NCBI RefSeq assembly: GCF_056712565.1
Contig: NZ_CM160072.1
Length of the DNA stretch: 64,000 nucleotides
Direction: 5' to 3' (one strand)
A program made the position numbers. Below, in pieces: positions 55,501-58,500 of this stretch; position 1 is the stretch's first letter, and each line of letters starts with the position of its first letter.

Positions 55501-58500
55501 CTTTACAGCAATATTTTCGAGTTCCAGGTAAAGTACTTTTTTCCGCGATAAAAGCAGACGCACAGAGTGCTGGCATCACATTCTGTGCGTATGGTTTAGC
55601 CTCTGACCTTTACCGCTTTACGCCACCGCAAGCCAAATACATTGATATACAGCCCGGTCATAATGAGCACCGCACCGAAAAATTGCAGACCCGTTAAGCG
55701 TTCATCCAACAATAGTGCCGCACTTGCCAGTCCAACTACAGGCACCAGTAACGATAACGGTGCAACCCGCCAGGTTTCATAGCGTCCCAGTAACGTCCCC
55801 CAGATCCCATAACCAACAATTGTCGCCACAAACGCCAGATACATCAGAGACAAGCTGGTGGTCATATCGATAGTAACCAGACTGTGAATCATGGTTGCGG
55901 AACCATCGAGAATCAGCGAGGCAACAAAGAAGGGAATGATTGGGATTAATGCGCTCCAGATTACCAGCGACATCACTGCCGGACGCGTTGCGTGCGACAT
56001 GATCTTTTTATTGAAGATGTTGCCACACGCCCAACTAAATGCTGCCGCCAGGGTCAACATAAAGCCGAGCATCGCCACATGCTGACCGTTCAGACTATCT
56101 TCGATTAACACCAGTACGCCAAAAATCGCTAAGGCGATCCCCGCCAATTGTTTGCCATGTAGTCGTTCACCGAAAGTAAACGCGCCAAGCACGATAGTAA
56201 AAAACGCTTGTGCCTGTAACACCAACGAGGCCAGTCCAGCAGGCATACCAAAGTTAATAGCGCAGAACAGAAAGGCAAACTGCGCAAAACTGATGGTTAA
56301 TCCATACCCCAGCAGCAAATTCAGTGGTACTTTCGGTCGTGCGACAAAAAAGATGGCCGGGAAAGCAACCAGCATAAAGCGCAAACCGGCCAGCATCAGC
56401 GGTGGCATGTTATGAAGCCCCACTTTGATGACCACAAAATTTAGCCCCCATACAACCACTACCAGTAGCGCCAACACCCCATCTTTTCGCGACATTCTAT
56501 CGCCTCTGAATTTCATCTTTTGTAAGCAATCAACTTAGCTGAATTTACTTTTCTTTAACAGTTGATTCGTTAGTCACCGTTTACGACGGCATTAATGCGC
56601 AAATAAGTCGCTATACTTCGGATTTTTGCCATGCTATTCCTTTACATCTCTAAAACAAAACATAACGAAACGCACTGCCGGACAGACAAATGAACTTATC
56701 CCTACGACGCTCTACCAGCGCCCTTCTTGCCTCGTCGTTGTTATTAACCATCGGACGCGGCGCTACGCTGCCGTTTATGACCATTTACTTGAGTCGCCAG
56801 TACAGCCTGAGTGTCGATCTAATCGGTTATGCGATGACAATTGCGCTCACTATTGGCGTCATTTTTAGCCTCGGTTTTGGTATCCTGGCGGATAAGTTCG
56901 ACAAGAAACGCTATATGTTACTGGCAATTACCGCCTTCGCTAGCGGTTTTATTGCCATTCCTTTAGTGAATAACGTGACGCTGGTGGTGCTCTTTTTTGC
57001 CCTTATTAACTGCGCCTACTCCGTTTTTGCTACCGTGCTGAAAGCCTGGTTTGCCGACAATCTTTCGTCCAACAGCAAAACGAAGATTTTCTCAATCAAC
57101 TACACCATGCTCAACATTGGCTGGACCATCGGTCCGCCACTCGGCACGCTGTTGGTGATGCAGAGCATCAATCTGCCCTTCTGGCTGGCAGCTATCTGTT
57201 CCGCGTTCCCCATGCTTTTCATTCAAATTTGGGTAAAGCGCAGCGAGAAAATCATCGCCACGGAAACAGGCAGTGTCTGGTCGCCGAAAGTTTTATCACA
57301 AGATAAAGCACTGTTGTGGTTTACCTGCTCTGGCTTTCTGGCTTCTTTTGTTAGCGGCGCATTTGCTTCATGCATTTCACAATATGTGATGGTGATTGCT
57401 GATGGTGATTTTGCCGAAAAGGTGGTCGCGGTTGTTCTTCCGGTGAATGCTGCCATGGTGGTTACGTTGCAATATTCCGTGGGCCGCCGCCTTAACCCGG
57501 CTAACATCCGCGCGCTGATGACAGCAGGCACCCTCTGTTTCGTCATCGGGCTGGTCGGTTTTATTTTTTCCGGCAACAGCCTGCTATTGTGGGGTATGTC
57601 AGCTGCGGTATTTACTGTCGGTGAAATCATTTATGCGCCGGGCGAGTATATGTTGATTGACCATATTGCGCCGCCAGGAATGAAAGCCAGCTATTTTTCC
57701 GCCCAGTCTTTAGGCTGGCTTGGTGCTGCGATTAACCCATTAGTGAGTGGCATAGTACTTACCAGTCTGCCGCCTTTCTCGCTGTTTATCATCTTAGCGT
57801 TGGTGATCGTTGTTGCGTGGGTGCTGATGTTAAAAGGAATTCGTGCAAGACCGTGGGGGCAGCCCGCGCTTTGTTGATTTAAGTCGAACACAATAAGAAT
57901 TTAATTCAGCCTTCGTTTAGGTTACCTCTGCTAATATCTTTCTCATTGAGATGAAAATTAAGGTAAGCGAGGAAACACACCACACCATAAACGGAGGCAA
58001 ATAATGCTGGGTAATATGAATGTTTTTATGGCCGTACTGGGAATAATTTTATTTTCTGGGTTTCTGGCCGCGTATTTCAGCCACAAATGGGATGACTAAT
58101 GAACGGAGATAATCCCTCACCTAACCGGCCCCTTGTTACAGTTGTGTACAAGGGGCCTGATTTTTATGACGGCGAAAAAAAACCGCCAGTAAACCGGCGG
58201 TGAATGCTTGCATGGATAGATTTGTGTTTTGCTTTTACGCTAACAGGCATTTTCCTGCACTGATAACGGATCGTTGACACAGTAGCATCAGTTTTCTCAA
58301 TGAATGTTAAACGGAGCTTAAACTCGGTTAATCACATTTTGTTCGTCAATAAACATGCAGCGATTCCTTCCGGTTTGCTTACCCTCATACATTGCCCTGT
58401 CCGCTCTTCCAATGACCACATCCAGAGGCTCTTCAGGAAATGCACGACTCACACCAGCAGTCACGGTAATGTTGATATGCCCTTCAGAATGTGTGATGGC

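What the first reader, a model, noticed from the sequence alone, without database searches (positions are those of the whole stretch)
58100..58330. Convergent terminators and a PhoP-box-like repeat: candidate MgrR sRNA next to mgtS
After the 31-codon mgtS gene and its terminator, a second strong intrinsic terminator is encoded on the opposite strand (hairpin 58182-58201, U8) some 120 bp beyond the dgcZ stop. The minus strand also carries aGTTTA-N5-cGTTTA at 58308-58324, overlapping the end of dgcZ. This fits an independent PhoP-dependent sRNA of about 100 nt, and MgrR is known to lie beside mgtS; however I could not find a convincing -10 and the ends are approximate.
Basis: partly seen in the sequence, partly recalled or inferred. 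Interest (0 to 1): 0.45.

Follow-up and report, generated by a model that had tools for sequence, protein, structure and literature searches.

The report
Known E. coli small RNA MgrR

Summary
The finding is the known Hfq-dependent, PhoQ/PhoP-induced sRNA MgrR (Rfam RF01407 "STnc560"; K-12 gene mgrR, b4698). In the window it is 58272→58175 on the minus strand: 98 nt, 97/98 identical to K-12. It lies convergent to mgtS–mgtT and downstream of dgcZ.

Two refinements.
- Promoter comparison across about 74 Enterobacteriaceae species indicates the conserved PhoP box is cGTTTA-acatt-cATTGA (58313–58297, −41 to −25).

The rival reading, "just the dgcZ 3′ end", is rejected. The same promoter and RNA occur in genera with no dgcZ upstream. 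Published Term-seq also shows a roughly 1000-fold stronger 3′ end here than at the mgtS terminator 20 nt away.

Novelty: already known. Interest: low.

The parts
58175..58272 (-). MgrR sRNA, 98 nt. The 5' end is G at 58272 and the 3' end is the last U of the U8 tail at 58175.
   Evidence: K-12 annotation mgrR b4698, 1622817-1622914, transferred through gap-free alignment A1. 97/98 identical; nt 4 is C here and U in K-12. Rfam RF01407 hit covers 58306-58093. Term-seq 3' end at K-12 1622824 = window 58182, 7 nt inside the annotated end.
58238..58268 (-). 5' stem-loop of MgrR (nt 5-35).
   Evidence: MFE fold agrees with published RNase probing that found a stable 5' stem-loop (PMC6239178). All 65 distinct orthologous 5' regions fold into a hairpin of at least 5 bp, mean z = -2.35, despite sequence divergence.
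58222..58236 (-). A-rich (ARN)5-like tract, AAAAGCAAAACACAA (nt 37-51). Proposed contact for the Hfq distal face (Class II sRNA).
   Evidence: Sequence read directly. [quoted passage not shown]
58205..58218 (-). Seed / base-pairing region U55-A68, UAUCCAUGCAAGCA.
   Evidence: Published pairing region for eptB and ygdQ (PMC6239178). U55 and A68 fall on the expected bases. The predicted duplex with the K-12 eptB leader covers eptB -10 to +9, -18.7 kcal/mol.
58175..58201 (-). Rho-independent terminator: stem 58201-58182 (loop UUUA) plus U8 tail 58182-58175. This is the module that binds the Hfq proximal face.
   Evidence: Terminator scan and fold. 8 conserved pairs across 34 species, 2 of them with compensatory changes. 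Term-seq read count of 2.43 million at this site.
58279..58287 (-). Extended -10 promoter element TGcTACTGT. The TG is at -15/-14 and the hexamer TACTGT spans -12 to -7.
   Evidence: TGnTAnnnT lies at a fixed distance (9 nt) from the PhoP box in 68 of 75 enterobacterial loci. A few have GG in place of TG. Its position relative to the annotated +1 was read from the sequence.
58297..58313 (-). Conserved PhoP box cGTTTA-acatt-cATTGA at -41 to -25, replacing a -35 element.
   Evidence: Match to GTTTA in 70 non-Escherichia loci: upstream hexamer 4.97/5, downstream hexamer 3.44/5 (at least 4/5 in 41 of 70). The location at the -35 region is typical of E. coli PhoP-activated promoters (PMC7667037). 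PhoP binding was not tested here.
58319..58324 (-). It is made of the last codon (GTT) and part of the stop codon (TAA) of dgcZ.
   Evidence: Present in the window, K-12 and E. whittamii; AGTTTT in another E. coli-clade genome. In 70 non-Escherichia loci the match is 1.53/5, close to random, and reaches 4/5 in only 1 of 70.
58318..59208 (-). dgcZ (diguanylate cyclase), the upstream neighbour. There is no terminator between its stop codon and the MgrR terminator.
   Evidence: Annotation, ORF list and terminator scan.
58004..58099 (+). mgtS (31 aa), the convergent neighbour.
   Evidence: ORF list and annotation.
58099..58203 (+). mgtT (34 aa). Its start codon overlaps the mgtS stop codon, and its last 29 nt are antisense to the MgrR 3' end.
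   Evidence: Annotation b4775. Discovery by ribosome profiling and epitope tagging (bioRxiv 10.1101/511675). Operon with mgtS (PMC11429745).
58127..58165 (+). mgtS intrinsic terminator (hairpin 58127-58157, T-run 58161-58165), lying inside the mgtT ORF.
   Evidence: Fold, z = -3.5. Term-seq 3' end at K-12 1622804 = window 58162.

Best explanation
The region encodes MgrR, a 98-nt trans-acting, Hfq-dependent small RNA (window 58272 to 58175, minus strand).

Transcription. It starts from its own activator-dependent promoter. Phosphorylated PhoP, produced when PhoQ senses low Mg2+/Ca2+, binds a direct-repeat PhoP box that takes the place of the -35 element (most likely cGTTTA-N5-cATTGA, -41 to -25). 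PhoP recruits RNA polymerase to an extended -10 (TGcTACTGT). Transcription ends at a strong intrinsic terminator whose U8 tail is also the binding site for the Hfq proximal face.

Action. The RNA has a 5' stem-loop, a single-stranded A-rich tract that contacts the Hfq distal face (Class II sRNA), and a single-stranded seed (nt 55-68). The seed pairs across the translation-initiation region of eptB, and also targets ygdQ and other mRNAs, repressing them. This lowers phosphoethanolamine modification of LPS and changes polymyxin sensitivity.

Basis. Shown here: identity, coordinates, structure, promoter conservation and synteny. Taken from the literature: PhoP dependence, Hfq binding and the targets. 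Inferred: which half-sites PhoP actually occupies.
For: - Rfam RF01407 match: 281.9 bits (gathering score 55), E = 1.8e-64, full length.
- K-12 annotation of mgrR at the orthologous position; 97/98 nt identical.
- The locus is present in 5416 of 5426 complete E. coli genomes.
- The fold gives a 5' stem-loop, an open centre and a terminator, z = -2.9. This matches published probing, the 98-nt length, the (ARN)5 tract, seed U55-A68 and the U8 tail (PMC6239178).
- Convergent, PhoPQ-dependent transcription of mgrR and mgtS is stated in bioRxiv 10.1101/2021.06.30.450655. PhoP/Q dependence and eptB repression are stated in PMC4651636.
- The promoter architecture YGTTTA-N5-NRTTKA-N9-TGnTAnnnT is conserved in 68 of 75 loci that were selected only by the seed sequence.
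- Term-seq shows a 3' end at the terminator with 2.43 million reads.
- The seed pairs over the eptB start codon.
Against: - Nothing contradicts the identity.
- The original paper (Moon & Gottesman 2009, PMC2841474) was not available, so I could not check which hexamers its authors called the PhoP box or how +1 was mapped.
- The MgrR-eptB duplex energy is not distinctive against shuffled seeds: z = -1.1, with 120 of 1000 shuffles as good.
- The Term-seq 3' end lies 7 nt inside the annotated end, so the exact 3' end is uncertain by the length of the U-tract.
Confidence: 0.97

Rival explanations
1. The minus-strand terminator is only the 3' end of the dgcZ mRNA. There is no separate sRNA promoter, and any short RNA is a processed 3'-UTR fragment.
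For: No terminator lies between the dgcZ stop codon (58318) and the hairpin at 58201-58182, so dgcZ transcripts very probably do end at this terminator. No canonical sigma-70 promoter is detected.
Against: - The same sRNA, with the same PhoP box and extended -10 at fixed spacing, occurs in Enterobacter, Lelliottia, Leclercia, Kluyvera, Salmonella and others, where the upstream gene is not dgcZ. A dgcZ C-terminus is detected immediately upstream of mgrR in only 17 loci (Escherichia and Citrobacter), while mgrR is present in about 75.
- K-12 annotates it as a separate ncRNA.
- The literature describes PhoPQ-dependent transcription of mgrR.
- The Term-seq count of 2.43 million is of the order seen for very abundant RNAs in that table, not for typical mRNA ends.
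Confidence: 0.02
2. MgrR is real, but the operative PhoP site is the reader's pair aGTTTA-N5-cGTTTA (-52 to -36). Alternatively, all three phased half-sites are used in Escherichia, with PhoP acting from a position one helical turn further upstream.
For: - In E. coli this pair matches the GTTTA-N6-GTTTA core perfectly, and such a match is rare: 0.11 expected per window.
- The three hexamers are phased at 11 bp.
- PhoP boxes at other distances from -35 are known, e.g. ugd, mgtC and lmiA (PMC7667037).
Against: - The upstream hexamer is not conserved outside Escherichia: 1.53/5 mean match, at least 4/5 in 1 of 70 loci. The other two hexamers and their 9-nt spacing to the extended -10 are conserved.
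- The upstream hexamer's sequence is constrained by dgcZ coding (GTT-TAA), so it may be coincidental.
- Most E. coli PhoP boxes lie at the -35 region (PMC7667037).
Confidence: 0.12
3. The hairpin and the repeat are chance features of an intergenic region and have no function.
For: None beyond the generally high frequency of hairpins in intergenic DNA.
Against: Rfam E = 1.8e-64. Conservation across Enterobacteriaceae genera. Experimental literature.
Confidence: 0

Closest known systems
MgrR sRNA of E. coli K-12 (mgrR, b4698; Rfam RF01407 'STnc560', the name from the Salmonella Hfq co-IP screen)
   Same: Same locus (between mgtS/mgtT and dgcZ), same strand and same 98-nt length. 97/98 nt identical. 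Identical seed, A-rich tract, terminator and promoter region.
   Different: One substitution at nt 4 (C in the window, U in K-12), in the unpaired 5' end just before the 5' stem. The Rfam model (214 positions) is longer than the real RNA: it adds 34 nt of promoter and 82 nt downstream, including the antisense of the mgtS terminator.
PhoP-activated promoters of E. coli with a (T/G)GTTTA-N5-(T/G)GTTTA box at -35 (e.g. mgtA, mgrB, and the neighbouring mgtS)
   Same: A direct repeat with 11-bp phasing at the -35 position, no -35 hexamer, and dependence on a good -10. The mgtS promoter in the same window has aATTCA-N5-cGTTTA-N12-TAATAT (57903-57937). That layout is conserved in 29 of 40 distinct orthologous upstream regions.
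   Different: In mgrR the perfect hexamer is the distal one and the -10 is of the extended TG type. In mgtS the perfect hexamer is the proximal one. Both mgrR hexamers begin with C rather than T/G. Escherichia has a third phased hexamer upstream.
Class II Hfq-dependent sRNAs (ChiX, MgrR, CyaR, McaS)
   Same: An internal A-rich (ARN)n tract plus a terminator U-tail, so the RNA contacts both the distal and proximal faces of Hfq (PMC6239178). Both motifs are present unchanged in the window.
   Different: None detectable from sequence.

Membership tests
MgrR / Rfam RF01407 (STnc560) | Match to the family covariance model above its gathering score | tested here: met
   281.9 bits against 55, E = 1.8e-64, model positions 1-214 of 214, not truncated.
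MgrR / Rfam RF01407 (STnc560) | Orthologous position and sequence relative to the annotated K-12 mgrR gene | tested here: met
   K-12 ncRNA mgrR 1622817-1622914 (-). Gap-free alignment, 97/98 identical, flanked by mgtS/mgtT and dgcZ as in K-12.
MgrR / Rfam RF01407 (STnc560) | Conserved single-stranded seed (U55-A68) that pairs with the eptB translation-initiation region | tested here: met
   The seed UAUCCAUGCAAGCA is identical and unpaired in the MFE fold. The predicted duplex covers eptB -10 to +9 at -18.7 kcal/mol, but the energy is not distinctive against shuffles, z = -1.1. Regulation itself was not testable.
MgrR / Rfam RF01407 (STnc560) | Intrinsic terminator with a long U-tail and an internal A-rich tract (Hfq-binding modules of a Class II sRNA) | tested here: met
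   8-bp G+C-rich stem plus U8. The stem is conserved in 34 species, with 2 covarying pairs. The A-rich tract AAAAGCAAAACACAA is present. Actual Hfq binding is not testable with these tools.
MgrR / Rfam RF01407 (STnc560) | Transcription induced by PhoQ/PhoP in low Mg2+ | not testable with these tools
   Known only from the literature. The sequence correlate, a PhoP box at -35, is present and conserved.
PhoP-activated promoter (PhoP box class) | Direct repeat (T/G)GTTTA-N5-(T/G)GTTTA with few mismatches at the -35 region, upstream of a -10 element | tested here: met
   cGTTTA-acatt-cATTGA at -41 to -25: 8 of 10 core positions, both first positions C. It lies 9 nt upstream of the TG of an extended -10. 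The architecture is found in 68 of 75 loci. The criterion of at most 2 mismatches at -35 is quoted from PMC7667037.
PhoP-activated promoter (PhoP box class) | Physical binding of PhoP~P to the box | not testable with these tools
   Needs a footprint, EMSA or ChIP. The original paper was not available.

The most novel reading that the evidence does not exclude
Nothing about MgrR's identity is new. The most novel reading the evidence leaves open concerns how the locus is wired in Escherichia.

(a) The mgrR promoter has gained a third, perfectly phased PhoP half-site built from the last sense codon and stop codon of dgcZ. PhoP might then occupy three half-sites and physically couple the end of dgcZ transcription to mgrR activation.

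(b) The dominant mgtS 3' end (58162) lies inside the mgtT ORF. Full-length MgtT could therefore be made only from terminator read-through transcripts, which are perfectly antisense to the MgrR terminator and U-tail. This would create a cis-antisense link between two PhoP-induced convergent genes.

Neither point has been tested.
Probability: 0.1. Interest if true: 0.3.

Novelty: already known. Interest (0 to 1): 0.08.

Why it matters
MgrR links Mg2+ sensing through PhoQ/PhoP to LPS modification (eptB) and polymyxin sensitivity, and it is a model Class II Hfq sRNA. All of this is already published. For the scan, the result shows that a reader working from raw sequence located a real sRNA gene from its terminator and an activator box. 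For this locus, the only additions are precise coordinates for this strain, identification of the extended −10, and a phylogenetic argument for which half-sites form the conserved PhoP box.

Tried and rejected
- I could not obtain Moon & Gottesman 2009 (PubMed id and PMC2841474), Yin et al. 2019 (PMC6351178) or Wang et al. 2017 (PMC5465934). None is held, so the published +1 mapping and PhoP-box assignment could not be read directly.
- A literature search for 'STnc560' together with 'MgrR' found nothing. The equivalence rests on the Rfam hit and the K-12 annotation falling on the same bases.
- Full-length MgrR × eptB duplexfold gave a meaningless long duplex, worse than shuffled controls, because intramolecular structure is ignored. 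I redid it with the single-stranded core only. The published site is recovered but is not statistically distinctive.
- MAFFT plus RNAalifold on 34 orthologues recovered only the terminator, because the 5' stem-loop is too divergent to align. I replaced this with per-sequence folding.
- I assumed the window was colinear with the ATCC 11775 record. That was wrong over 1–50000, so I mapped it by BLAST instead.
- My first anchoring script mis-anchored the two Salmonella loci on a spurious TG. Re-anchoring on the box placed 74 loci.
- Considered and rejected: a dgcZ 3'-UTR-only reading, and chance (see rival explanations).

Full report
**Observation.**
- mgtS is a 31-codon ORF at 58004–58099 on the plus strand.
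- It is followed by a strong hairpin at 58127–58157 and the run ATTTTTAT (−23.2 kcal/mol, z = −3.5).
- On the minus strand, ACCGCCGG-TTTA-CTGGCGGT (58201–58182) with its T8 run (58182–58175) is the only minus-strand terminator-like site found between 57800 and 58500.
- That hairpin begins 117 nt beyond the dgcZ stop codon (TAA, 58320–58318).
- The repeat aGTTTA-agctc-cGTTTA lies at 58324–58308 on the minus strand, and its first hexamer overlaps the last codon and stop codon of dgcZ.
- The core pattern GTTTA-N6-GTTTA occurs three times in the window against 0.11 expected by chance.

**Identity.** A scan of the whole window against Rfam gives one hit above threshold: RF01407, "STnc560 Hfq binding RNA", at 58306–58093 on the minus strand. 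The score is 281.9 bits against a gathering score of 55, E = 1.8e-64, over the full model.

The 541 bp around the finding occur in 5416 of 5426 complete E. coli genomes. The K-12 MG1655 record annotates, between mgtT and dgcZ, the ncRNA mgrR (b4698, "small regulatory RNA MgrR", 1622817–1622914, minus strand, 98 nt).

A gap-free alignment of 321 bp of the window to K-12 shows three substitutions. It transfers the gene to window 58175–58272, with one difference at nt 4 (C here, U in K-12).

**Anatomy.** The 98-nt RNA folds into three parts (−25.9 kcal/mol, z = −2.9):
- a 5' stem-loop (nt 5–35; 58268–58238);
- an open central region;
- the terminator hairpin (nt 72–91) with its U-tail.

This matches published RNase probing (PMC6239178): two terminal stem-loops, a single-stranded centre carrying an (ARN)5-like A-rich tract, the pairing region U55–A68, and a 3' U8. 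In the window the A-rich tract is AAAAGCAAAACACAA (58236–58222). U55 and A68 fall on 58218 and 58205, giving the seed UAUCCAUGCAAGCA.

With only the single-stranded core allowed to pair, the best duplex with the K-12 eptB leader uses MgrR nt 54–72 and covers eptB −10 to +9, across the start codon (−18.7 kcal/mol). This agrees with the documented target site. The energy is not distinctive against dinucleotide shuffles (z = −1.1), so I count it as consistency and not as independent evidence.

**Promoter.** I fetched orthologous loci with one scan of species-representative genomes using a 19-nt seed sequence. There were 84 matching stretches; about 75 are usable Enterobacteriaceae loci, and a few are chance hits in unrelated taxa. 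Selection was by the seed alone, so promoter conservation is an independent observation.

In 68 of 75 loci the layout is YGTTTA-N5-NRTTKA-N9-TGnTAnnnT. With slightly relaxed anchoring, 74 loci align in register. In the window this layout corresponds to:
- cGTTTA at 58313–58308;
- acatt (spacer);
- cATTGA at 58302–58297;
- nine bases;
- TGcTACTGT at 58287–58279;
- six bases, then G at 58272, the annotated +1.

The conserved PhoP box thus lies at −41 to −25, in place of a −35 hexamer. The −10 is of the extended TG type. That explains why a standard two-hexamer scan found nothing.

Match to GTTTA in 70 non-Escherichia loci:

| Hexamer | Window coordinates | Mean match (of 5) | Loci with ≥4/5 |
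|---|---|---|---|
| Middle hexamer | 58313–58308 | 4.97 | 70 of 70 |
| Downstream hexamer | 58302–58297 | 3.44 | 41 of 70 |

A box at the −35 region is what is described for most E. coli PhoP-activated promoters (PMC7667037).

The upstream hexamer is confined to Escherichia and is built from the dgcZ codons GTT-TAA. It could be an accident of coding or an added third site. I could not read the original paper to see how its authors drew the box.

**The rival "dgcZ 3' end".** No terminator separates the dgcZ stop codon from the MgrR terminator, so dgcZ transcripts probably do end there. That cannot be the whole story.
- The same RNA with the same promoter lies behind unrelated genes in Enterobacter, Lelliottia, Leclercia, Kluyvera, Salmonella and others. 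A dgcZ C-terminus is found immediately upstream of mgrR in only 17 loci, while mgtS is the convergent neighbour in 45.
- Published Term-seq lists a minus-strand 3' end at K-12 1622824 (window 58182) with 2.43 million reads. The mgtS terminator on the other strand, at 1622804 (window 58162), has about 2600 reads.
- The literature states that mgrR and mgtS are convergently transcribed under PhoPQ control, and that MgrR is PhoP/Q-dependent and represses eptB.

**Structure conservation.**
- The terminator stem is kept in 34 genus-diverse orthologues, with two pairs showing compensatory changes.
- The 5' region is too divergent to align. Even so, all 65 distinct versions fold into a hairpin of at least 5 bp, with a mean z of −2.35.

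**Mechanism.**
- Shown here: the gene, its coordinates, its fold, its conserved promoter layout and its synteny.
- From the literature: low Mg2+ activates PhoQ/PhoP, PhoP activates mgrR, MgrR binds Hfq through its U-tail and A-rich tract (Class II), and its seed pairs with eptB, ygdQ and other mRNAs to repress them.
- Inferred: that PhoP occupies 58313–58297 and contacts RNA polymerase bound at the extended −10.

**Uncertainties.**
- The exact 3' end is uncertain by 7 nt. The annotation puts it at 58175 and Term-seq at 58182.
- The +1 is taken from the K-12 annotation, not measured.

**Verdict.** Already known. Interest is low.

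Noticed in passing
window 58099-58203 (+), with 58162: The annotated small-protein gene mgtT (34 aa) starts on the mgtS stop codon (TAATG). It runs through the mgtS terminator hairpin and ends 29 nt inside the antisense of MgrR. The dominant published Term-seq 3' end of the mgtS transcript (K-12 1622804 = window 58162) lies at about codon 22 of mgtT. Full-length MgtT would therefore need terminator read-through, and such transcripts would be antisense to the MgrR terminator. A Rho-termination region antisense to dgcZ (K-12 1623270, +) hints that read-through exists.
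   Followed up: partly
orthologous loci L003-L086, downstream of mgtS: The reading frame corresponding to mgtT is poorly conserved. The ORF from the mgtS stop codon varies from 7 to 45 codons, and some genera have ACG in place of ATG. It is 34 codons in only 4 loci, whereas MgtS is 80-100% identical in most of these loci. In published work, deleting or overexpressing MgtT had no effect (PMC11429745).
   Followed up: partly
window 57903-57937 (+): The mgtS promoter carries its own PhoP box at the -35 position: aATTCA-gcctt-cGTTTA, then 12 nt, then TAATAT. The layout RRTTMA-N5-YGTTTA-N12-TAnnnT is found in 29 of 40 distinct orthologous upstream regions. Here the perfect hexamer is the promoter-proximal one, the reverse of mgrR.
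   Followed up: partly
window 32164-32179 (+) and 33168-33183 (-): These are the other two exact GTTTA-N6-GTTTA matches in the window, which has 3 against 0.11 expected. Both flank a fimA-like major fimbrial subunit gene (32330-32941, minus strand). One lies about 230-290 bp upstream of it on the same strand. The other lies between it and the chaperone gene on the opposite strand. They could be PhoP sites or a by-product of a locally A+T-rich region.
   Followed up: no
window 59209-59715: Between dgcZ and dcp the window has only about 500 bp. In the ATCC 11775 record, which matches the window at this locus, this stretch carries only pseudogene fragments, including an 'incomplete TIGR00156 family protein'. 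K-12 has an intact ydeI there (BOF family, 393 bp). The ydeI region therefore appears deleted or decayed in this lineage.
   Followed up: no
window 27363-29237: The window matches E. coli ATCC 11775 at 99.98% or better over 2143-27363 and 29237-50000. Between those blocks it has 1.9 kb where that strain has 4.0 kb (end of the fimbrial usher gene, then ydeS, ydeR, ydeQ, to the start of ydeP). This is a structural difference in the fimbrial cluster.
   Followed up: no
locus L014 (Enterobacteriaceae bacterium RIT691), seed matches at 1438-1456 and 3032-3050 (-): This genome has two mgrR copies 1.6 kb apart, nearly identical from the loop of the 5' hairpin to the terminator. One has the PhoP box and extended -10. 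The other has unrelated upstream sequence and neither element.
   Followed up: no
locus L008 (MAG labelled Caldithrix sp., contig SMXE01000224.1): This contig carries mgrR, MgtS (100% identical) and MgtT (100% identical), as in E. coli. It is almost certainly E. coli contamination or mis-binning in that metagenome-assembled genome.
   Followed up: no
window 58093-58306 (-): The Rfam STnc560 model (214 positions) is more than twice as long as the real 98-nt RNA. It includes 34 nt of promoter and 82 nt beyond the terminator, covering the antisense of the mgtS terminator and the end of mgtS. Hit boundaries from this family should not be read as transcript ends.
   Followed up: yes
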